Sequence record: NC_054909.1
Strand: one strand, 5' to 3'
DNA from: Escherichia phage EC121
DNA: 64,000 nucleotides
Within the stretch, counting starts at the first letter, position 1, and every line of letters starts with the position of its first letter. The notes under the pieces were generated by a model. The model worked only from the letters and a program-made list of their open reading frames with translations. It was not told the origin of the DNA and did not search any database. Shown here one piece after another: positions 8,418 through 63,989 of this stretch. The translations under genes and the position numbers were made by a program.

Positions 8418-9043
8418 TACAATAGCTCAAAGAATTCTTTGAGTCCTCTTATTACATGAGCGTGAGATTTTCCACACTCTGGACACTTAATTGGAACAGC
8501 CAAATACACAGTAGGCTTTAAAAGCATATCTTTTATAGCTACAATATCTGACTCTGTGATGATAGAATATAAATCTTCCAACTCTTTTTCATTTAAGTCT
8601 TCAATTGGAATGCTTTCACCGTTAGCATGAATCGTTTCTATACATGATACTATCATGTGGGCTATATTTTTATCATCAAAAATTTTAGGGTAATGGAACT
8701 TAATTTTAATGTCACCCAGTGTATACCAGAGGTCTTCTGGTGCATCTATTTGTGTATGTAATAGATTTATATGGGTTGGTATTTCAGTTCCGCAGGTGCA
8801 CTTCCAGGAGTTTTCGTGATTAACTTCGCCGAGAGAATGTGCCCATAAATGAATCAACAATAGTTCTGATTCTTGGCGGTTTAAATCTTTTGCATTTGTG
8901 CAGTCTTTGATTAGCTTTTTAACAATTACTTCTACGGAACCATTATTTTTGGCAGTAATAAGTTCTAGATATTCTTTAAGCGTGAATGCGCGACAATTGA
9001 TTATTTTAGAACCAACTCTCACATCAAATTTGTATTCATACAT
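8417..9043 (-). CDS. 26: Baseplate hub protein gp26
   Basis: 208 aa (T4 gp26 length); TAATG coupling to gene 25; synteny. Confidence 0.8.
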
Positions 9044-14369: not shown

Positions 14370-15334
14370 TGTATTCTTTAGAGGAATTTAATAATCAAGC
14401 AATAAACGCAGATTTCCAACGTAATAATATGTTTAGCTGCGTTTTTGCGACAACTCCATCAACTAAAAGCTCTTCGTTGATAAGTTCAATTAGCAACTTT
14501 TCTTATAATAACTTGGGTCTAAATTCAGATTGGTTAGGATTGACTCAAGGCGATATTAATCAGGGAATTACCACGCTAATTACCGCTGGCACACAAAAAC
14601 TGATAAGAAAATCAGGGGTTAGTAAATATCTTATTGGTGCCATGAGTCAACGTACAGTTCAAAGTTTATTGGGCTCATTTACAGTTGGTACATATTTAAT
14701 TGACTTCTTTAACATGGCATATAACTCATCTGGATTGATGATATATTCTGTAAAAATGCCAGAGAATAGATTATCCTATGAAACTGACTGGAACTATAAT
14801 TCTCCTAATATTCGTATAACTGGGAGAGAATTAGACCCTTTGGTTATTTCATTTAGGATGGATTCAGAAGCTTGTAACTATCGTGCGATGCAAGACTGGG
14901 TTAACGCTGTTCAAGACCCAGTAACTGGATTGCGTGCTTTGCCACAAGATGTCGAGGCAGATATTCAGGTTAATCTTCATGCTCGTAATGGATTACCTCA
15001 TACTGCGGTGATGTTCACTGGATGCATTCCAATGTCAGTGAGCGCTCCTGAGCTATCATATGATGGAGATAACCAAATAACTACATTTGATGTTACTTTT
15101 GCGTATAGAGTCATGCAGGCTGGGTCGGTTGATAGACAAGCTGCGCTTGAGTGGCTTGAATCTGCTGCTATAAACGGTATTCAAAGCGTTCTCGGAAATA
15201 GTGGAGGTGTTACTGGATTATCTAATTCGCTTTCACGACTTAGTAGATTAGGAGGAACTGCTGGAAGCATTTCAAACATTAATACTATGACGGGAATTGT
15301 CAACTCGCAAAGTAAAATATTAGGAGCAATATAA
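14369..15334 (+). CDS. 54: Baseplate-tail tube initiator gp54
   Basis: 321 aa; TAATG overlap with gene 48; synteny. Confidence 0.8.
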   Translation: MYSLEEFNNQAINADFQRNNMFSCVFATTPSTKSSSLISSISNFSYNNLGLNSDWLGLTQGDINQGITTLITAGTQKLIRKSGVSKYLIGAMSQRTVQSLLGSFTVGTYLIDFFNMAYNSSGLMIYSVKMPENRLSYETDWNYNSPNIRITGRELDPLVISFRMDSEACNYRAMQDWVNAVQDPVTGLRALPQDVEADIQVNLHARNGLPHTAVMFTGCIPMSVSAPELSYDGDNQITTFDVTFAYRVMQAGSVDRQAALEWLESAAINGIQSVLGNSGGVTGLSNSLSRLSRLGGTAGSISNINTMTGIVNSQSKILGAI

Positions 15335-15338
15335 CAAT

Positions 15339-15372
15339 GGGGACCGAAAGGTCCCCATATTTTTATTTACGG
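15339..15372 (+). terminator. Rho-independent terminator after gene 54
   Basis: GGGGACC-GAAA-GGTCCCC hairpin followed by ATATTTTTATTT. Confidence 0.65.
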
Positions 15373-15653
15373 AATGAAATGAAAGCAGCAACTGAAGCAA
15401 CTAAACTGTCTTCAATATAAACTTCAATTTTTACCGGAGCTTCTGACTCAAATTTACCTGTTACTACACCTTGGAAAATGCTTTCAGTCTGTTCTGGCTT
15501 TGAAAAATTTTCAGAAGGAAAAATTCCGAACTTTTTATCTGTTCCAAAAATTTTGATAAATTCATCATAAACTGCTTCATTAAAAGCGTTATCAGCAGGA
15601 ATAACGCCTTCAACTACAAGTTCTTGACCTAAAAAGCGTAAAGAAGATTTCAT
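15363..15653 (-). CDS. Hypothetical protein
   Basis: 96-aa ORF with its own early-promoter/leader cassette upstream. Confidence 0.5.
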   Translation of the reverse strand: MKSSLRFLGQELVVEGVIPADNAFNEAVYDEFIKIFGTDKKFGIFPSENFSKPEQTESIFQGVVTGKFESEAPVKIEVYIEDSLVASVAAFISFRK

Positions 15654-15660
15654 TTTGTGT

Positions 15661-15714
15661 TCCTCATGTTATGTCAGTAAGACTACTATAACACAACACG
15701 AGGGACTTGTAAAC
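15661..15714 (-). promoter_or_regulatory. T4-type early promoter plus leader, cassette copy 1
   Basis: Minus strand reads GTTTAC, 18-nt spacer, TATAGT, then a leader with GAGGA ahead of the ATG; 53 of 54 bp identical to 30938-30991. Confidence 0.55.
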
Positions 15715-17771
15715 TACATTTTGAACTTTTTAGACATTCCGTTGATGTTAACCAAAGAAGCTAAGATTTGAGAAACTTCGTTTTCCTCTTCTTTTGATTC
15801 TTCTACAAGGAATTGATTAAATCCAGCCATTGGACGAACTTCACCAGTTTCCATTAGATGGTCGCCATCATATACTGATTCTTCTAATTGTTCAGAAGGA
15901 GGAACGATTGTGCCTTCAATTAGATACTTGTTATAAGCAGTTTCTTTCATCATGTACGTGCTTACTTTATTAATCTTCAACAAAATTCCACGCGGTAGAA
16001 TAACTTCAGCTTCTGATGGAAATCCTGATAAATGACCTGGAACGATAACTTTAATTCGCTCAGCTCCTTTTATTACCATACCCACGCTAGTTTCAGCATC
16101 TTCATTAGCATATGCGGAATGACTACCCATATGCATTAAATCTTCGGCATCAACAGAACCTTCTCCTTCACCAGAAAATACTGCGCCGGAATCATCTAGA
16201 GCCATATAGTTTTTACCATGCTCACCGAAGATATTTGGTTTAAGCGATGTTGATACGAAGTTCTTGAAATAGAACATTTTATTTTCAATATTATGGCGTA
16301 AAGTTTTAAAAGTAACTTCTTGTCCACGATAAAGCGTAGTTCCCGGAGGAAGAACTGATCCTTTGGCGAATGCAGAATCCAACGTCTCGATGTGTTTAAT
16401 AGCTCGTTCCATGTATTCTTCACGGGTAGAATCTGGTTTACCCAAGAGGAACGAGTTCATTTCAACATATGAATCTGCACAATAATCTTCAATTACATCA
16501 GACTCAGCCTGAGTCAGTCCTTTTGGAGTTACTTCGGTGCTTGCGTATTCATATGCCTGAGCAGCAGATTCATTAATCAATTTATAAATGCCATTCATGA
16601 CAAATTGAATAATAGCTACCTTTTCGTCTGGTGTGGCTTTAGAACCTTTAACTAAATCATTGATAATTTTCTTAATAACATCAAAGCTATTAGAAATATT
16701 AATGTCAGCGAGATCGCTCAAAATTTTATCGGTTTTATAATCAAAAAATTCTTTATTCTTTAAATATTCTTGAGAACCTTGATGTGTTATATCGCTCTGC
16801 AGTCTGATAGACGGATCACGTAAACGTGCATGGGCCAATGCAATATGATTTCGGAAGCTTTCTAGTTCATAATCGTTAGATTTAAAACGAGAAGCACTTC
16901 TCATACCACCGATAGCTCCTTTGCCGAAGTTTGAACCAATCTGAATAACGCCAGAGTTCATTGGTCCTTCTGCTTTATATACAGGAACTTTAGATTCAAA
17001 CTCTTGATATTTCTTGGCAGCGAAGCTATCACCCTGAAGTGAAGCATCGACAGTAGAATATTGAGCTTGCGCTGCTAATCGACGACTAATTTTAGTTTTC
17101 TGAATAACAGCTTGATCCGTGCGCTTATCATTTTCTAAAGCAATAGAAGCAGCAACAGCAACAGCTTTAGGAACAGCATTACCTGTTTTAACATCTACAT
17201 AAACATCACCAACCTTTGATTCAACTTTTGTGAATAACTCAGTTGAAATAGGAGGTACGCCTGGAATGTCTTCTAAATTGGCATTTTTACGGTAAACCAT
17301 AATATATGCATACTTTTTATCATAATCCCAGATTTCCTTTAAAAGAACATATCGACCTGCTCCTTTAGTACGTACTAAACGATCAGCAATAACTTGCATT
17401 TGACGAGCTGCGCCATTTGTTTTACTTTTTAGTACGCGGAATAGGCATGCGTCAATTTTATACTGTTTCATTGTTTGAAGAGCAGTATCAAAAACCGCAT
17501 TAATGACACCAATTGGATTTCCACCCAAGTTTTTAAGTTTAACTAATGATAGTTTCTCATTAACACCTATCATTACGATATGCATCATTTTATCGCCTGG
17601 CTTAACGTTTTTATTTGTATCACCACCAGAGGTGTATGTACAAAATCTAAATCCAGGAAGCACACTTTCTTCGCCGGCTTGAATAGCAAAAATTTGAGGT
17701 ATTTTATGCTTAGGATTTAAGTTAACAACCGGCGCCGAAGCGCCGTCAAATAATTCTGTAATAAGTTCCAT
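15714..17771 (-). CDS. Alt-like ADP-ribosyltransferase, paralog B
   Basis: 685 aa; N-terminal ~230 aa highly similar to the adjacent Alt; C-terminus keeps ART motifs (LYRGQ, FVSTSL, SEAEVILPRG); middle region diverged. Confidence 0.8.
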   Translation of the reverse strand: MELITELFDGASAPVVNLNPKHKIPQIFAIQAGEESVLPGFRFCTYTSGGDTNKNVKPGDKMMHIVMIGVNEKLSLVKLKNLGGNPIGVINAVFDTALQTMKQYKIDACLFRVLKSKTNGAARQMQVIADRLVRTKGAGRYVLLKEIWDYDKKYAYIMVYRKNANLEDIPGVPPISTELFTKVESKVGDVYVDVKTGNAVPKAVAVAASIALENDKRTDQAVIQKTKISRRLAAQAQYSTVDASLQGDSFAAKKYQEFESKVPVYKAEGPMNSGVIQIGSNFGKGAIGGMRSASRFKSNDYELESFRNHIALAHARLRDPSIRLQSDITHQGSQEYLKNKEFFDYKTDKILSDLADINISNSFDVIKKIINDLVKGSKATPDEKVAIIQFVMNGIYKLINESAAQAYEYASTEVTPKGLTQAESDVIEDYCADSYVEMNSFLLGKPDSTREEYMERAIKHIETLDSAFAKGSVLPPGTTLYRGQEVTFKTLRHNIENKMFYFKNFVSTSLKPNIFGEHGKNYMALDDSGAVFSGEGEGSVDAEDLMHMGSHSAYANEDAETSVGMVIKGAERIKVIVPGHLSGFPSEAEVILPRGILLKINKVSTYMMKETAYNKYLIEGTIVPPSEQLEESVYDGDHLMETGEVRPMAGFNQFLVEESKEEENEVSQILASLVNINGMSKKFKM

Positions 17772-19871: not shown

Positions 19872-19891
19872 AGCCTCTCTAGTGTTTATTC

Positions 19892-19899
19892 TATTTATA
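19892..19899 (-). promoter_or_regulatory. Late promoter (TATAAATA on minus strand) for alt
   Basis: Reverse complement is TATAAATA, about 20 nt upstream of the alt start. Confidence 0.5.
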
Positions 19900-19906
19900 A
19901 AATTAA

Positions 19907-19920
19907 AGGCCCGAAGGCCT
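19907..19920 (-). terminator. Hairpin terminator between the gene 30 unit and alt
   Basis: GGCC-CGAA/TTCG-GGCC hairpin followed on the minus strand by a T-rich run. Confidence 0.5.
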
Positions 19921-20109
19921 TTAGTAATCTAGTGGTAAGAGAGTACGATATATTTCAAACTTTGGTCCTTTTTCATAGGCATCAAATGTTTCTGTAAATT
20001 TATTGTAAGCATATGCATCTACAAATTCGAGAATGACTTGTGATACAGAAGTAGAAACATCTCCACCTTCTTTTTGAGCAATGACAATTGTTTCTAAGTA
20101 AGCTTTCAT
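19921..20109 (-). CDS. Hypothetical 62-aa protein coupled to DNA ligase
   Basis: ATG overlaps the gene 30 stop (ATGA); acidic small protein. Confidence 0.5.
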   Translation of the reverse strand: MKAYLETIVIAQKEGGDVSTSVSQVILEFVDAYAYNKFTETFDAYEKGPKFEIYRTLLPLDY

Positions 20110-23809: not shown

Positions 23810-23849
23810 AGTATTTTCCTCAGTAAGGGGCCGAAGCCCCTGTTTTATT

Positions 23850-24215
23850 TTAAATATCAAATTCGTTAAGAACTACATCAAAGATTGCTTCAAGATGCTC
23901 AGGTTTAGCTCTGTTACTCAAAATATGACGAATCCAAGTTTTAACCAGAAGCTTACGATTAGCGCCATTCCAGCAAGGATGGGTCCCTAAATCGCGTTGA
24001 CGAAAATCATCATCCAGAGCGATTTTGAAGTTTGAACCTTCCATTGTGATTGAAACCGTGATGCCATTTTCAAATCGCATATAAACGTAGTTAGGAGTCA
24101 TATACTGTTCAATTTCGCATACTGATCCATTTTGATGTTTCCAAAGGCAAATAGTATCAATAGAACCTGCAATACCATTAGAAACATATTTACGTTCAAA
24201 GTTGATGTAGTTCAT
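23850..24215 (-). CDS. Hypothetical protein
   Basis: 121-aa ORF. Confidence 0.5.
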   Translation of the reverse strand: MNYINFERKYVSNGIAGSIDTICLWKHQNGSVCEIEQYMTPNYVYMRFENGITVSITMEGSNFKIALDDDFRQRDLGTHPCWNGANRKLLVKTWIRHILSNRAKPEHLEAIFDVVLNEFDI

Positions 24216-30086: not shown

Positions 30087-30436
30087 TTAGAAAGGTCCTG
30101 GATGTCTTCTGCGAACTTGTTGAAGGAGTTGTTGATTTGTTTTTCAACCAATCCTGGCTTACGAGCCACCACATCCGCCTTCTTTGCATCTTTGCGCAGT
30201 TTTTCATTTTCACGCTCAATAGCAGCAATCGCCTCACGATTTTTATTATTCATCGCATCAATATAATTATACTGAATTCGCAAATTATTTAATGCTAAGG
30301 CGTTTTCATTGGCCGTTTTTGTAATTTCTACAACAGACGTTTCTAATCTTTCTACCTTATTTTTTAAAATAATAGATGTTCCGCCAAATGCTATTACAAG
30401 TAATAGCAATCCAGCTGTAAAATTACTTACATGCAT
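30083..30436 (-). CDS. Inner-membrane spanin (Rz-equivalent)
   Basis: 117 aa; N-terminal transmembrane helix (LLLLVIAFGGTSIIL) then coiled-coil-like region. Confidence 0.55.
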   Translation of the reverse strand: MHVSNFTAGLLLLVIAFGGTSIILKNKVERLETSVVEITKTANENALALNNLRIQYNYIDAMNNKNREAIAAIERENEKLRKDAKKADVVARKPGLVEKQINNSFNKFAEDIQDLSK

Positions 30437-30933
30437 AAAGTTTTAATAACCTCTATAATATCGTCTTGAGAAAGACCGTTAATTAAAATATGATGTTCAG
30501 CCGGAGATTTAGAAATTTTAAAGCACGCCGCAACATCTTCTGCCATATCCGATGCGCTACGATTTGGATTACTAATTCCAAGACGATGCTTTCCTGTCAA
30601 AGGATTAACGATGATATAGCATTTGCAGCTATTGATATGAACATTAGGTTGAGTCTGATTAATAAACACTTCACAATCATACTTAGCGAGTTGATTTTCT
30701 AAAAAGACTTTCATCTCCTCAACCGCATCAGGAAGCATATCACGGGCTTGCTCAAGACGACGATTTCGATATTCTTTAATGGTCGTTTTCCGCTTGACTT
30801 GCTTAGCTAAATCTTTCTTAAGATCGGTGATATATCCAACTCGACGATTTCCTTTGAATACAGAAATCCCATCTGTAGTATCACCGTATGCTTCAACGAC
30901 CATTTCAGTAGTAATAATCTGCAAATCCATCAT
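30427..30933 (-). CDS. alc: Alc, inhibitor of host transcription on cytosine-containing DNA
   Basis: 168 aa (T4 Alc about 167 aa); position between the pseT cluster and rnlA. Confidence 0.65.
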   Translation of the reverse strand: MMDLQIITTEMVVEAYGDTTDGISVFKGNRRVGYITDLKKDLAKQVKRKTTIKEYRNRRLEQARDMLPDAVEEMKVFLENQLAKYDCEVFINQTQPNVHINSCKCYIIVNPLTGKHRLGISNPNRSASDMAEDVAACFKISKSPAEHHILINGLSQDDIIEVIKTLCM

Positions 30934-30937
30934 AAAG

Positions 30938-30991
30938 TCCTCATGTTATGTCAGTAAGATTACTATAACACAACACGAGGGACTTGTAAAC
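30938..30991 (-). promoter_or_regulatory. T4-type early promoter plus leader, cassette copy 2 (drives alc)
   Basis: GTTTAC, 18-nt spacer, TATAGT, leader with GAGGA; 53 of 54 bp identical to 15661-15714. Confidence 0.55.
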
Positions 30992-30994
30992 AGC

Positions 30995-32582
<1,588 letters not shown>

Positions 32583-44968: not shown

Positions 44969-47900
44969 ATGGCCGAGATTAAAAGAAAGTTCAGAGCAGA
45001 AGATGGTCTGGACGCAGGTGGCGATAAAATAATCAACGTAGCTTTAGCTGATCGTGCCGTAGGAACTGACGGTGTTAACGTTGATTACCTAATTCAAGAA
45101 AACACAGTTCAACAATATGATCCAACTCGTGGATATTTAAAAGATTTTGTAATCATTTATGATAACCGCTTTTGGGCTGCTATAAATGATATTCCAAAAC
45201 CAGCAGGAGCTTTTAATAGTGTACAATGGAGAGCATTACGTACTGATGCTAATTGGACAACTGTTTCATCAGGACCTTATCAATTAAAGTCAGGCGAATC
45301 AATTTCAGTTGATACTGCAGCTGGTAATGACATTACATTTACTTTGCCATCTTCTCCAATTGATGGAGATACTATCGTTCTTCAAGATATTGGTGGAAAA
45401 CCTGGTGTTAACCAAGTTTTAATTGTAGCTCCAGTGCAAAGTATTGTAAACTTCAGAGGCGAACAAGTACGTTCAGTACTAATGACTCATCCAAAATCGC
45501 AGATAGTTTTAATTTTTAGTAATCGTCTGTGGCAAATGTATGTTGCTGATTATAGCAGAGAAGCTGTAGTCGTAACACCGGCAAGTCTTTATCAGGCGCA
45601 ATCTAACGATTTTATCGTGCGCAGATTTACTTCAGCCGCGGCGATTAATATTAAACTTCCGAGATTTGCTAATCATGGCGATATTATTAATTTCGTCGAT
45701 TTAGACAAATTAAATCCACTTTATCATACAATTGTTACTACATACGATGAAACAACTTCAGTGCAAGAAGTTGGAACTCATTCCATTGAAGGCCGTACAT
45801 CGATTGATGGTTTCTTGATGTATGATGATAATGAGAAATTGTGGAGATTGTTTGACGGGGATAGTAAAGCACGTTTACGCATTATAACAACTAATTCTAA
45901 TATTCGTCCAAATGAAGAAGTCATGGTATTTGGCGCGAATAATGGAACAACCCAAACAATTGAACTTCAGCTTCCAACCGATATTTCCATTGGTGATACT
46001 GTTAAAATTTCCATGAATTACATGAGAAAAGGCCAAACAGTTAAAATCAAAGCTGCCGGTGAAGATAAAATTGCTTCTTCAGTTCAGTTGTTGCAATTCC
46101 CAAAACGTTCAGAATATCCGCCTGAAGCTGAATGGGTGACTGTTCAAGAATTAGTTTTTAACGGTGAAACTAATTATGTTCCAGTTTTACAACTTGCTTA
46201 TATAGAAGATTCTGACGGAAAATACTGGGTTGTACAACAAAACGTTCCAACAGTTGAAAGAGTTGATTCTTTAAATGATTCTACTAGAGCAAGATTAGGC
46301 GTAATAGCTTTAGCTACACAAGCTCAAGCTAACGTCGATTTAGAAAATTCTCCGCAAAAAGAATTAGCAATTACACCAGAAACATTAGCTAATCGTACTG
46401 CTACAGAAACTCGTAGAGGTATCGCAAGAATAGCAACTACTGCCCAAGTGAACCAGGATACTACATTCTCTTTTGCTGATGATATTATCGTCACTCCTAA
46501 AAAGCTGAATGAAAGAACTGCTACAGAAACTCGTAGAGGTGTTGCTGAAATTGCTACGCAACAAGAAACTAATGCAGGTACTGATGATACTACAATCATC
46601 ACTCCTAAAAAGCTTCAAGCTCGTCAAGGTTCTGAATCATTATCTGGTATTGTAACCTTTGTATCTACTGCAGGTGCTACTCCAGCTTCTAGCCGTGAAT
46701 TAAATGGTACGAATGTTTATAATAAAAACACTAATAATTTAGTTGTTTCGCCTAAAGCTTTGGATCAGTATAAAGCTACTCCAACGCAACAAGGTGCAGT
46801 AATTCTAGCAGTCGAAAGTGAAGTAATTGCTGGACAAAGCCAAGAAGGATGGGCAAATGCGGTTGTAACGCCAGAAACGTTACATAAAAAGACATCAACT
46901 GATGGAAGAATTGGTTTAATTGAAATTGCTACGCAAAGTGAAGTTAATACAGGAACTGATTATACACGTGCAGTCACTCCTAAAACTTTAAATGACCGTA
47001 GAGCAACTGAAAGTTTAAGTGGTATAGCTGAAATTGCTACACAAGTTGAATTCGACGCAGGCGTCGACGATACTCGTATCTCTACACCATTAAAAATTAA
47101 AACTAGATTTAATAGTACTGATCGTACTTCTGTTGTTGCTCTATCTGGATTAGTTGAATCAGGAACTCTCTGGGACCATTATACCCTTAATATTCTTGAA
47201 GCAAATGAGACACAGCGTGGTACACTTCGTGTAGCTACACAAGTTGAAGCTGCTGCAGGAACATTGGATAATGTTCTAATAACTCCTAAAAAGCTTTTAG
47301 GTACTAAATCTACTGAAGCACAGGAAGGCGTTATTAAAGTTGCAACTCAGTCTGAAACTGTAGCTGGAACGTCAGCAAATACTGCTGTATCTCCAAAAAA
47401 TTTAAAATGGATTGTGCAGAGTGAACCTACTTGGGCAGCTACTACCCTGGTAAGAGGTTTTGTTAAAACTTCATCTGGTTCAATTACATTCGTTGGTAAT
47501 GATACAGTTGGTTCAACACAGTCATTAGAATTATACGAGAAAAATAGCTATGCAGTATCGCCATATGAATTAAACCGTGTATTAGCAAATTATTTGCCGT
47601 TAAAAGCAAAAGCCGTAGATAGTAATTTACTGGATGGTCTAGATTCATCTCAGTTCATTCGTAGGGATATTGCACAAACGGTTAATGGTTCACTAACCTT
47701 AACCCAACAAACGAATCTGAGTGCCCCTCTTGTATCATCTAGTACTGCTACGTTTGGTGGATCAGTTTCAGCAAATAGTACACTAACCATTTCTAATACT
47801 GATGGAACAGCAACTCGTCTGATTTTTGAGAAAGGACCTCAAACTGGAACGAACCCGGCTCAAACGATGACAGTCAGCGTGTGGGGGAATCAATTTAGTG

Positions 47901-61395: not shown

Positions 61396-61450
61396 CCGTA
61401 GTTGATAGAGTAATAATACCACAGAGGAACAGTCTTGTAAACAACTTTTT
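61396..61450 (-). promoter_or_regulatory. T4-type early promoter/leader cassette
   Basis: Minus strand: GTTTACAAGACTGTTCCTCTGTGGTATTATTACTCTATCAACTACGGAGG…. Confidence 0.45.
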
Positions 61451-62785: not shown

Positions 62786-62823
62786 AATTTTTCCTTAAAA
62801 CAAAAGGGCCGAAGCCCTTTATT

Positions 62824-63018
62824 TTACTTGAATTGTGCAATTCTTTTCTCTAGACATTCAGCATAAGATTTCATTGAGATAAACTGTGAAAGTAACAGTT
62901 CTTGCTCAACTGCACTAACTGTTAGAAACTTTGCGCTTTCTAAAAATTTACTCAGTGCATTAATTTTGAGCATTAATTGATCGTATTCTTCTTTTACTCG
63001 TGCTTGATAACCTAACAT
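62824..63018 (-). CDS. Hypothetical protein
   Basis: 64-aa ORF flanked by GGGCC-GAAG-CCC hairpins. Confidence 0.45.
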   Translation of the reverse strand: MLGYQARVKEEYDQLMLKINALSKFLESAKFLTVSAVEQELLLSQFISMKSYAECLEKRIAQFK

Positions 63019-63050
63019 AATTTTCCTTAATGTGATAAGGGCCGAAGCCC

Positions 63051-63989
63051 TTATTTAAATTGTTCAGTAACGTCTTCAACTACTTCGTATTGGCAGGTAC
63101 GCATTTTAGCATCGTTGTAATCAATCGGAATTGATACTACATCGCGAGGATGAACTTTAACTTTTACAACTCGGCTGGTTGAACTGCCAAAGTGACGAAT
63201 ATAAGATTTAGAACACACATGCAGACCGCGAGAACAAGTTTGCGTATCATCGTCATTCACACGAGTACGTGGCATTTTAACTACTTTACCAGGACTGTTA
63301 TCAAAGGTATTTGAGTGACAATCAAAGTAATTGCTGCGAACTACTTTCCAAGCATAGAAGTAACCATCTTCTGTAATTTCAATATCGTTTGCTACCAAGA
63401 AATCAAAGAGTCGAGAAACCGCTTTCTGGCTTGGGTTTTCCAGCAGATTTTCCAAGAACGGAAAATAAAATTCAAAGTTTTCGCCTTTTTCCATCGAATC
63501 AAGAATACGATCAACCAAACCAGACCGCAATTCAATATTTTGATAGAACAAGCTTCCACCTTCAATTCGAACATCGCCGGAAATATATTTTTCAACAGCG
63601 CGACGAACATTAATTTTTTGTGCTGCTTCTTCTAACTTATCTGCTACAAGCAGATTAAGAATTTCCTGGAAGTTTGAATGAGTATTAGGAGTTGCGTTAT
63701 AAGTTACGCCATCAACAGTAATTGAAATGAATTTTTTAGATGCATTCCAAATAATGTCAGATTTAGCAACTGGAGCAATAGCTGTATCGCTATCAACTTT
63801 AACCGTAATGTCACCGCTAATAGTAACTTTAGGACGTTTAGCTTCTTCAGCATTTTTCAAAACACGACGGATTGTGTCAACCGATACATCCTTCCAATAA
63901 GCTAATTCCTGCTGGGTGTAATTACCGCTTGAATACAGTTTGACAATTTCAGCTTGTTCGTTTTTGGTCAGGCATTTAATATTGTACAT
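63051..63989 (-). CDS. rIIB: rIIB rapid-lysis protein
   Basis: 312 aa (T4 rIIB length); N-terminus MYNIKCLTKNEQAEIVKLYSSGNYTQQELAYWKDVS… matches T4 rIIB from memory. Confidence 0.8.
   Translation of the reverse strand: MYNIKCLTKNEQAEIVKLYSSGNYTQQELAYWKDVSVDTIRRVLKNAEEAKRPKVTISGDITVKVDSDTAIAPVAKSDIIWNASKKFISITVDGVTYNATPNTHSNFQEILNLLVADKLEEAAQKINVRRAVEKYISGDVRIEGGSLFYQNIELRSGLVDRILDSMEKGENFEFYFPFLENLLENPSQKAVSRLFDFLVANDIEITEDGYFYAWKVVRSNYFDCHSNTFDNSPGKVVKMPRTRVNDDDTQTCSRGLHVCSKSYIRHFGSSTSRVVKVKVHPRDVVSIPIDYNDAKMRTCQYEVVEDVTEQFK

What the first reader, a model, noticed from the sequence alone, without database searches (positions are those of the whole stretch)
15661..15714. 54-bp promoter-plus-leader cassette duplicated 15 kb apart (second copy 30938-30991)
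The sequences upstream of the 96-aa ORF and upstream of alc are 53/54 identical. The block spans the -35 GTTTAC, -10 TATAGT and the whole 5' leader including the Shine-Dalgarno. Identity this high in an otherwise divergent AT-rich genome suggests recent transfer of a portable expression cassette, or a substrate for recombination. The copies are direct repeats.
Basis: seen in the sequence. Interest (0 to 1): 0.4.

Follow-up and report, generated by a model that had tools for sequence, protein, structure and literature searches.

The report
Duplicated hairpin-embedded early promoter cassette
Two nearly identical 54-base control units (promoter plus leader) sit in front of the T4-type phage genes alt.-3 and alc; the pair is an old, genus-wide feature of a known kind of phage regulatory cassette, and it is predicted to fold in long transcripts so as to hide the ribosome-binding site.

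Summary
Window 15661-15714 and 30938-30991 are 53/54 identical direct repeats. They read on the minus strand and fill the intergenic gaps before alt.-3 (96 aa) and alc. Each carries TTTACA-17-TGtTATAGT and an SD (GAGGA).

"Recent transfer" is not supported. The block occurs twice in essentially all 498 Tequatrovirus records, including T4 and T6, and is absent from other genera that have both genes. Polymorphisms shared between the two sites point to occasional gene conversion. Dhakavirus VR5 independently homogenised a different 31-nt leader between the same two genes.

The promoter spacer pairs with the leader and SD, and the -10 box sits near the apex. Read-through RNA should therefore mask the SD (predicted opening cost 9-11 kcal/mol). 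RNA started at the block's own promoter should not (1-3 kcal/mol).

The same design, with different stems and compensatory changes, lies upstream of alc in most Tevenvirinae lineages.

It fits the published PeSL cassette class and resembles the T4 e/soc/49/I-TevI hairpin-with-internal-promoter control, but with an early promoter. No transcription start, translation or termination was measured here.

The parts
15661..15714 (-). Copy A of the 54-nt cassette, upstream of alt.-3. It is identical to the T4 alc copy.
30938..30991 (-). Copy B of the 54-nt cassette, upstream of alc. It has one difference (G32A, + strand 30960), which lies in the hairpin loop.
15708..15713 (-). -35 hexamer TTTACA of copy A (GTTTAC = 15709-15714). 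G 15714 is also the last base of the TAG stop of the upstream Alt-like ORF.
15685..15693 (-). Extended -10 TGtTATAGT of copy A (TG 15692-15693, hexamer 15685-15690). It lies at the top of the hairpin.
15690..15703 (-). 5' arm of the main stem, copy A (CCUCGUGUUGUGUU, block positions 12-25). It lies in the promoter spacer, upstream of the predicted start, so it is absent from the promoter's own transcript.
15662..15675 (-). 3' arm of the main stem, copy A (GACAUAACAUGAGG, positions 40-53). It forms the leader and includes four of the five bases of the SD GAGGA (15661-15665).
15676..15687 (-). Apical stem AGUA/UACU with loop GUCU, copy A. The transcription start is predicted near A37 (about 15678), 7 nt past the -10. 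This is inferred from spacing and has not been mapped.
   Evidence: spacing rule for sigma-70 promoters (own knowledge)
30985..30990 (-). -35 hexamer TTTACA of copy B.
30962..30970 (-). Extended -10 TGtTATAGT of copy B.
30967..30980 (-). 5' arm of the main stem, copy B. With its flanks the stem extends to AAGUCC/GGACUU.
30938..30952 (-). 3' arm of the main stem plus SD GAGGA (30938-30942), copy B.
15363..15653 (-). alt.-3 (96 aa, unknown function), the gene served by copy A.
30427..30930 (-). alc (167 aa from the ATG that T4 annotates; an in-frame ATG lies 3 nt upstream). It encodes the inhibitor of host transcription and is the gene served by copy B.
15714..17771 (-). Full-length second Alt-like ADP-ribosyltransferase paralog (685 aa), whose transcripts would read into copy A. 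In T4 it is reduced to alt.-1/alt.-2.
30995..32119 (-). rnlA (gene 63, RNA ligase 1), whose transcripts would read into copy B. No terminator-like site lies between it and alc.

Best explanation
Each copy is a self-contained early-gene expression cassette of the PeSL type, that is, an early promoter combined with a stem-loop. It has a strong sigma-70-type T4 early promoter (TTTACA, 17 nt, TGtTATAGT), a leader of about 25 nt and an SD.

The cassette is also an 18-bp hairpin in sense RNA. The promoter spacer (5' arm) pairs with the leader and SD (3' arm), and the -10 box and the predicted start lie near the apex. Transcripts that enter from the upstream gene (the Alt paralog or rnlA) contain both arms and are predicted to hide the SD of alt.-3 or alc. 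Transcripts that start at the cassette's own promoter contain only the 3' arm and leave the SD free. Translation of Alc and Alt.-3 would thus be tied to the brief period when early promoters fire, whatever reads through later.

The hairpin-around-the-promoter design is ancestral upstream of alc across Tevenvirinae. In the Tequatrovirus ancestor the whole unit, from -35 to SD, was copied onto the alt.-3 site, most likely in the direction alc to alt.-3. The two copies have since stayed alike through shared constraint, low divergence within the genus and occasional gene conversion.

Shown here: the sequence anatomy, the predicted structure, the covariation and the phylogenetic distribution. Inferred: promoter use, the start site, the translational effect and the direction of copying.
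For: Anatomy: promoter consensus at both sites. The block exactly fills the gap between the upstream stop codon and the SD.

Structure: MFE is -23.0 and -24.4 kcal/mol for the 61-nt blocks, z -5.2 and -5.8. The same hairpin forms in 86-nt context. RNA starting after the -10 has z -0.35 and -0.75.

SD accessibility: the predicted cost of opening the SD is 11.0 and 8.9 kcal/mol in read-through RNA, against 2.8 and 1.2 kcal/mol in promoter-proximal RNA.

Strand specificity in the T4-type block: 3 G.U pairs; sense -24.4 versus antisense -15.4 kcal/mol.

Conservation with covariation upstream of alc: different stems in many lineages. In a swap test, the native 5' half plus 3' half folds better than all 18 chimeras in 11 of 19 lineages and is second best in 4 more. 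In a collinear set of 11 sequences, 94.6% of cells are paired against 39-46% with slid partners. Four of 17 pairs have compensatory double changes, including pairs inside the SD. The covariation score is 0.212 against 0.096 in shuffles (0/500).

Within Tequatrovirus: C15-G50 goes to U.G and then to U-A; G16.U49 goes to A-U; U25.G40 goes to U-A.

Expression context in T4: alt.-3 and alc are early RNA / early protein, alt.-2 and alt.-1 are middle RNA, and rnlA is early RNA / late protein.

Precedent: in T4 genes e, soc, 49 and I-TevI the SD is masked in long transcripts, and a promoter lies inside the 5' strand of the helix (PMC3014915).

Origin and maintenance: two copies in 498 of 498 Tequatrovirus records. 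Other genera have unrelated sequences at the two sites, and alt.-3 there has no SD-pairing hairpin. Haplotypes are shared between sites. Within-genome copies are slightly more alike than between-genome copies (2.1 versus 2.67 differences, permutation P = 0.043).
Against: No transcription start, translation or RNA-structure measurement was available; every functional step is predicted.

In three alc lineages (L011, L026, L039) the stem stops 1-3 nt before the SD. In RB69-like lineages there is no spacer:leader stem at all. SD masking is therefore not universal, and the conserved property may be the hairpin itself.

Outside the T4-type block the stems are almost all Watson-Crick with no consistent strand bias, so an RNA-level role is not proven there.

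Within Tequatrovirus, 4 of 13 distinct substitutions weaken the stem (G16T, T19A, G29A, G40T). By my own rough estimate (not a tool result), chance would leave about 58% of substitutions harmless, so this is not clearly different from chance.

The cassette evolves at about half the synonymous rate, which is moderate constraint, not strong. That sample was chosen for low identity.

Ribosomes terminating at the adjacent upstream stop codon could partly open the stem.

The direction of copying rests only on the absence of the hairpin at alt.-3 in outgroups. The 3' motif AACATGAGGAAC also resembles outgroup alt.-3 leaders.
Confidence: 0.55

Rival explanations
1. The stem-loop is mainly a transcription terminator, attenuator or insulator for RNA polymerase arriving from the upstream gene. 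This is what the PeSL authors proposed. SD pairing would be incidental. This reading is not exclusive of the main explanation.
For: PeSL stem-loops at the same kind of position were reported to act as terminators or attenuators in a lacZ assay (PMC2839356). The hairpin directly follows the upstream stop codon. In some alc lineages the stem stops short of the SD. Several other early promoters in the window have spacer:leader hairpins that do not reach the SD.
Against: No U-run follows either hairpin, and the terminator scan does not call them. The alc stems of other lineages also lack U-tracts. The T4-type stem extends exactly over the SD, and covarying pairs lie inside the SD.
Confidence: 0.25
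2. The hairpin provides translational coupling, not a block. Ribosomes finishing the upstream ORF, whose stop codon overlaps or abuts the -35, melt the base of the stem and let alc or alt.-3 be translated from read-through RNA in proportion to upstream translation.
For: The stop codon is 0-3 nt from the block, and the 5' arm begins 8-11 nt after it. This is within or near a terminating ribosome's footprint, a figure that rests on my own knowledge of footprint size.
Against: The SD-pairing bases C12-C15 lie at or beyond the expected footprint edge. rnlA protein is classed late while Alc is classed early, which argues against tight coupling.
Confidence: 0.1
3. The inverted repeat acts at the DNA level. 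It could be a binding site for a dimeric regulator, or a cruciform or ssDNA hairpin that affects promoter activity or marks a recombination hot spot.
For: Most non-T4 stems are perfect Watson-Crick palindromes with no strand bias. The PeSL authors speculated about a recombination protein binding the stem-loops. The two loci do exchange sequence.
Against: Stem sequences are unrelated between lineages, so no common protein-recognition sequence exists. The T4-type stem has 3 G.U pairs and is 6-9 kcal/mol weaker on the other strand. Polymorphisms pass through G.U intermediates.
Confidence: 0.07
4. One reading: a portable cassette was transferred recently within this genome, which would explain the near-identity.
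For: 53/54 identity, with sharp boundaries at the -35 and the SD.
Against: Both copies are present at the same two sites in essentially all 498 Tequatrovirus records. Orthologous diversity of each copy (2.2-2.9 differences per 54) equals the divergence between paralogs (2.1-2.7). Copies differ by up to 5 of 54 in T6.
Confidence: 0.03

Closest known systems
PeSL (promoter-early stem-loop) cassettes of T4-type phages (Arbiol et al. 2010, PMC2839356; Comeau et al. 2014, PMC4122927)
   Same: [quoted passage not shown] It has a strong sigma-70-type early promoter. In the 2010 definition the stem-loop lies between the -35 and -10 or overlaps the -10. The SD and start codon are at the 3' end. Copies are similar enough to recombine. 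The PST/T4 promoter consensus TTTACW-N17-TAYWAT matches this block except at one -10 position (TATAGT has G where the consensus has W). The exchange between two such units seen here is what the PeSL model predicts.
   Different: The PeSL papers treat the stem-loop as a terminator or attenuator and never discuss translation. For PST/T4 they draw the stem-loops upstream of the promoter. Here the stem spans the spacer, the -10 and the SD, has no poly-G/poly-C and no U-tract. There are only two copies at 98% identity, 15 kb apart, flanking essential genes, so excision as a mini-circle would be lethal. I could not see their figures, so I do not know whether these two sites were on their list.
SD-masking hairpins with an internal promoter in T4 genes e, soc, 49 and I-TevI (reviewed in PMC3014915)
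   Same: Long transcripts from upstream fold so that the SD is in a helix. A promoter placed inside the 5' strand of that helix gives transcripts that lack the masking arm and are translated. The geometry here is the same.
   Different: In the known cases the internal promoter is a late one (TATAAATA), and the purpose is to delay translation. Here it is an early sigma-70-type promoter, so the predicted effect is to confine translation to the immediate-early period. No experiment exists for alc or alt.-3, and alc is not mentioned in that review.
T-even internal-protein (IP) locus repeats (Repoila et al. 1994, as described in PMC2839356)
   Same: They are conserved T4 early-promoter-based elements with weaker AT-rich stem-loops that flank variable genes, and they are proposed to mediate shuffling.
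   Different: Known to me only through the citing paper, because the original is not held. Those elements flank interchangeable IP genes, whereas here the flanked genes are fixed and only the regulatory unit was copied.

Membership tests
PeSL cassette | Occupies the intergenic space from the stop codon of the upstream gene to the ATG of the downstream gene | tested here: met
   Copy A begins at the G of the TAG stop and copy B begins 3 nt after the TAA stop. Both end 7 nt before the ATG.
PeSL cassette | Sigma-70-like early promoter (-35, about 17-nt spacer, -10) | tested here: met
   TTTACA / 17 / TATAGT with TG, 10 of 12 matches, at both copies. This is a sequence match only; activity was not measured. 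T4 expression classes are consistent.
PeSL cassette | Stable stem-loop within or overlapping the promoter | tested here: met
   An 18-bp stem spans the spacer, -10 and leader; -23 and -24 kcal/mol, z -5.2 and -5.8.
PeSL cassette | AT-rich tract upstream of the -35 | tested here: inconclusive
   The upstream sequence is the 3' end of a coding gene. It is AT-rich at copy A (AAAAAGTTCAAAATGTA) and less so at copy B.
PeSL cassette | Stem-loop acts as a terminator or attenuator of upstream transcription | not testable with these tools
   No U-run follows the stem, and the terminator scan does not call it. Activity would need Term-seq or a reporter assay.
PeSL cassette | Repeated, similar copies that recombine with each other | tested here: met
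   Two copies are 98% identical. Derived haplotypes are shared between the sites. VR5 shows an independent leader conversion.
SD-masking hairpin with internal promoter (T4 e/soc/49/I-TevI type) | SD and/or AUG lies in a helix in transcripts coming from upstream | tested here: met
   This is a prediction only. GAGG pairs with CCUC of the spacer, and the opening cost is 9-11 kcal/mol in read-through RNA.
SD-masking hairpin with internal promoter (T4 e/soc/49/I-TevI type) | A promoter lies within the 5' strand, so that its own transcripts lack the masking arm | tested here: met
   The -10 is at block positions 25-30 near the apex and the predicted start is about position 37. The short RNA has z about -0.4 to -0.8 and an opening cost of 1-3 kcal/mol. 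The start site was not mapped.
SD-masking hairpin with internal promoter (T4 e/soc/49/I-TevI type) | The internal promoter is a T4 late promoter (TATAAATA) | tested here: not met
   The promoter is of the early sigma-70 type, and no TATAAATA is in the block. The block works like this class but is not a member as the class is classically described.
SD-masking hairpin with internal promoter (T4 e/soc/49/I-TevI type) | Demonstrated difference in translation between long and short transcripts | not testable with these tools
   Needs toeprinting or reporter fusions.
Intrinsic (Rho-independent) terminator | G+C-rich hairpin followed by a run of U | tested here: not met
   Neither copy is called in the scans of 15300-16000 and 30400-31300. 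The downstream sequences are AACACAAAAUG and CUUUAUGAUGG.
Rfam RNA families | Match to any curated covariance model | tested here: not met
   No family reaches its gathering score anywhere in the window.

The most novel reading that the evidence does not exclude
Embedding an early promoter inside a hairpin that masks the downstream SD is a conserved, selected gate that depends on where the transcript starts. It would restrict synthesis of the host-transcription inhibitor Alc (and, in Tequatrovirus, of Alt.-3) to transcripts fired in the first minutes of infection. It would be the early-gene mirror image of the T4 lysozyme (e) control. The two genes would then have been put under the same gate by copying the whole unit, which implies that Alt.-3 is needed on the same schedule as Alc. 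More broadly, many PeSL stem-loops would be translational insulators and not terminators.
Probability: 0.35. Interest if true: 0.55.

Novelty: new member of a known kind. Interest (0 to 1): 0.35.

Why it matters
If the gate works as predicted, it extends a classic T4 control principle from late genes to early genes: a promoter placed inside an SD-masking helix. It gives the PeSL stem-loops a second, translational role. It also explains how Alc, a protein that stops transcription on unmodified DNA, can be made only at the very start of infection even though later transcripts run through its gene.

It links the uncharacterised Alt.-3 to Alc by shared regulation, which is a lead to its function. 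The two-copy family with shared polymorphisms, together with the independent VR5 event, is a clean natural example of gene conversion between short regulatory cassettes in T4-type phages.

If the gate does not work, the finding is simply two members of a known cassette class that are already present in the T4 reference genome.

Tried and rejected
RNAalifold on a MAFFT alignment of 25 alc-upstream sequences gave no consensus structure, because the stem register differs by up to 3 columns between lineages. I replaced it with a swap test and a pair count on a collinear subset.

Rfam found nothing in the window.

A strand-bias test meant to prove an RNA-level role worked only for the T4-type block. 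Other lineages show no consistent bias.

The within-genus substitution pattern is compatible with structure conservation but is not clearly better than chance.

The test for concerted evolution was weak (P = 0.043, on a sample chosen for low identity).

A pairing between alt.-3 and alc regulatory regions across genera was rejected. In RB69, Melville and Kosakonia 305 the two are not each other's best match.

Literature: the T4 genome review (PMC150520) and Repoila 1994 (PMC395341) are not held. Full-text searches for the sequence and for alc promoter studies found nothing relevant. No T4 transcription-start map turned up. The PeSL 2014 paper has no held supplements.

RegB cleavage was considered and dropped, because the block has no GGAG.

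The IMG/VR pattern scan returned mostly unrelated chance matches and only a handful of Tequatrovirus contigs.

Full report
**The observation**

The two stretches, 15661-15714 and 30938-30991, are 53/54 identical. A search allowing three mismatches finds only these two copies in the 64-kb window, with none expected in 100 shuffles. Identity ends abruptly on both sides.

The genes here are on the minus strand, where the block reads GTTTACAAGTCCCTCGTGTTGTGTTATAGTAGTCTTACTGACATAACATGAGGA. The single difference is at block position 32 (G in copy A, A in copy B).

Copy A lies between a 685-aa Alt-like ORF and a 96-aa ORF, and the G of GTTTAC is the last base of that ORF's TAG stop. Copy B lies between rnlA and alc. 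PHROGs identify the 96-aa protein as a family of unknown function, and alc as the inhibitor of host transcription. A consensus scan calls TTTACA / 17 nt / TATAGT with an extended -10 TG at both sites. The SD GAGGA ends 7 nt before the start codon in both.

**Where the window comes from, and how widespread the repeat is**

The window is a Tequatrovirus (T4-like), about 98.5% identical to phages such as SH-2 and ime09 over the alt.-3 region.

The 54-mer is found in 498 phage records at 995 places, that is, twice in essentially every Tequatrovirus. These include T4 and T6, always at 90% identity or more. In reference T4 the same two sites are upstream of alt.-3 (122742-123032) and alc (135772-136275). 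Alc homologs occur in 1135 records and Alt.-3 homologs in 835, so the block is confined to one genus among many that have both genes.

The duplication is therefore old, at the base of the genus. It is not a recent event in this genome.

Folded as sense RNA, the promoter spacer CCUCGUGUUGUGUU (positions 12-25) pairs with the leader GACAUAACAUGAGG (positions 40-53), which contains the SD. A short apical stem AGUA/UACU and loop GUCU cap the structure, and the -10 box sits at the top.

The energy is -23.0 and -24.4 kcal/mol, with z-scores of -5.2 and -5.8. The same hairpin forms in 86-nt context. RNA beginning just after the -10, where a sigma-70 promoter would start (about position 37; inferred from spacing), has only the 3' arm and no significant structure, with z -0.35 and -0.75.

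The predicted cost of opening the five SD bases is 11.0 and 8.9 kcal/mol in read-through RNA. In promoter-proximal RNA it is 2.8 and 1.2 kcal/mol.

The stem has three G.U pairs and is 6-9 kcal/mol weaker on the opposite strand. No U-run follows it, and it is not called as a terminator.

**Comparative evidence for the structure**

Upstream of alc in 35 IMG/VR T4-like contigs and five reference genomes from other genera, most lineages have a GTTTAC promoter whose spacer pairs with the leader. The stem sequences are quite different. Examples are CUCCAUUUCGUUGUGU / ACACUAACGAAAUGGAG in Kosakonia phage 305, UCUCCUCAU / AUGAGGAGA in Dhakavirus and AACCUCUCAUUUUU / GAAAAUGAGAGGUU in a Proteus phage.

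A MAFFT-based RNAalifold run failed because the stems are out of register between lineages. I therefore used two other tests:

- **Swap test.** Joining each lineage's promoter half to every other lineage's leader half shows that the native combination is the most stable of 19 in 11 lineages and second in 4 more.
- **Pair count.** In a collinear subset of 11 sequences, 94.6% of cells are paired, against 39-46% when partners are slid. Four of 17 pairs show compensatory double changes, two of them inside the SD. The covariation score exceeds all 500 shuffles.

There are exceptions. In L011, L026 and L039 the stem ends 1-3 nt before the SD. RB69-like lineages have only a small hairpin inside the spacer. 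VR20-type phages have no early promoter there.

Outside the T4-type block there is no consistent strand bias.

**The alt.-3 site and the origin of the duplicate**

In RB69, VR5, IME08, Melville, Kosakonia 305 and VR20-type phages, the alt.-3 promoter is a different sequence with no SD-pairing stem. The hairpin design is thus ancestral at alc and derived at alt.-3. This favours copying from alc to alt.-3 in the Tequatrovirus ancestor. The 3' motif AACATGAGGAAC also resembles outgroup alt.-3 leaders, however, so the direction is only moderately supported.

The block's boundaries, the -35 and the SD, are motifs shared by all T4-type early promoters. They are plausible crossover points.

**How the copies stay alike**

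I compared ten genomes with both copies. Four of them were chosen for low identity, so the sample is not random.

- The copies differ by 0-5 bases (T6: 5). Mean within-genome difference is 2.1 and mean between-genome difference is 2.67 (permutation P = 0.043).
- Orthologous diversity of the cassette is 0.053 (alt.-3 site) and 0.041 (alc site). Third codon positions of the downstream genes are at 0.096 and 0.084, and those coding regions overall at about 0.03. Constraint is therefore moderate.
- The same derived variants occur at both sites. The linked pair G29A+G32A is at alt.-3 in ZN18, P8 and PP01 and at alc in PP01. T27C and G16A also occur at both sites. This is the signature of occasional gene conversion.
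- Some substitutions preserve the stem: C15-G50 to U.G to U-A, G16.U49 to A-U, and U25.G40 to U-A. Four of 13 distinct changes weaken it. By my own rough estimate about 58% of random substitutions would be harmless, so the within-genus pattern alone is not decisive.

Independently, Dhakavirus VR5 has an identical 31-nt leader (CCTTACACAAACATGAGGAGAACATTATGAA) at both alt.-3 and alc. Its relative IME08 has that leader only at alt.-3. This indicates a separate alt.-3 to alc conversion.

**Comparison with what is known**

The unit fits the PeSL definition of Arbiol et al. 2010: stop codon, early promoter, stem-loop between the boxes or overlapping the -10, then SD and ATG. Their model of recombination between such cassettes also fits. 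The 2014 paper reports PeSLs in the PST/T4 pair with consensus TTTACW-N17-TAYWAT. Those papers interpret the stem-loops as terminators or attenuators and never mention translation.

The predicted mechanism is that of T4 genes e, soc, 49 and I-TevI, where a promoter inside the 5' strand of an SD-masking helix frees the SD. In those cases the promoter is a late one, and alc is not discussed there.

T4 omics data class alt.-3 and alc as early RNA / early protein, alt.-2 and alt.-1 as middle RNA, and rnlA as early RNA / late protein. This is consistent with an autonomous early promoter and a discontinuity in expression at the cassette, but it is not a start-site map.

I found no published description of this particular repeat.

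**Verdict**

The cassette reading is right, the "recent transfer" reading is wrong, and the recombination idea is right in the sense of gene conversion.

The element is a member of a known class (PeSL-type early promoter cassettes) and is already present in the T4 reference genome. The additions from this work are a well-supported conserved hairpin that joins the promoter spacer to the SD upstream of alc, and the inference that it makes translation depend on where the transcript starts.

That inference is untested. The terminator/attenuator reading remains a serious, non-exclusive rival.

Noticed in passing
window minus strand, -35 (G of GTTTAC) at 61442, 27691, 24281, 40895, 24673: Other early-type promoters are also embedded in hairpins joining the promoter spacer to the leader, with unrelated stem sequences. 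61442 (-23.2 kcal/mol, z -5.7) and 24673 (z -2.2) pair the spacer with the SD. 27691, 24281 and 40895 (z -4.5 to -3.6) stop before it. Five other GTTTAC promoters on the minus strand show no such stem. Similar stems occur at homologous promoters in RB69, VR5, IME08 and Kosakonia 305.
   Followed up: partly
window 15714-17771 (-) versus T4 L003:366-751 (alt.-2/alt.-1): This phage has a full-length second Alt-like ADP-ribosyltransferase (685 aa). T4's alt.-1/alt.-2 are its remnant, left by a deletion of about 1.7 kb between two copies of CTAAAAAGT (window about 17424 and 15725). This shifts the frame so that T4 alt.-2 reads 29 nt into the 54-nt repeat. It also explains the 13.2-kb (T4) versus 15.3-kb (here) spacing of the repeat. 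The T4 record describes the genes as a duplication of the first part of alt.
   Followed up: yes
L007:461-520 (-) and L014:1444-1503 (VR5); L008 (IME08): Dhakavirus VR5 has an identical 31-nt leader, running through ATGAA, in front of both alt.-3 and alc. IME08 has it only at alt.-3. This is a second, independent homogenisation between the same two genes.
   Followed up: yes
L004, L005, L007, L008, L047 (alt.-3 promoters of RB69, Melville, VR5, IME08, VR20-type); L019, L038, L040 (alc, RB69-like): These promoters carry a small hairpin wholly inside the spacer, such as CCACAAGGATGTGG, CATCCATGGAAGGATG and ACACCAAGGAAGGTGT. It ends at the TG of the extended -10. Its meaning is unknown.
   Followed up: no
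window 15337-15358, and family members at 508-538, 2098-2128, 23825-23855, 62803-62833, 63016-63052, 19885-19921: A bidirectional terminator-like hairpin (ATGGGGACCGAAAGGTCCCCAT) lies between the convergent alt.-3 and gene 54. It belongs to a dispersed family of GGGNCC-GAA(A)G-GGNCCC hairpins followed by T-runs.
   Followed up: no
window 46311-47295: There are several short direct-repeat families (D4, D7, D15; 63-90% identity, spacings of 108-921 nt) within what looks like one coding region. This may be a repetitive structural protein.
   Followed up: no
L022, L024, L041 (VR20/VR25/VR26-type contigs), about 100 nt upstream of alc: alc has no GTTTAC early promoter in these phages. In L024 and L041 a G+C-rich hairpin (AAAAAGGGGTGTACAAGCCCCTT) precedes it, and the tblastn match to Alc spans 742 nt instead of about 500, which suggests an insertion or a different gene structure.
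   Followed up: no
L005 (Melville) minus-strand promoters at script offsets 8070 and 9015; L006 (Kosakonia 305) at 8967 and 15025: Other pairs of early promoter cassettes within one genome are 77-81% identical, with leaders 81-84% identical. Partial homogenisation between cassettes therefore seems common in T4-type phages.
   Followed up: no
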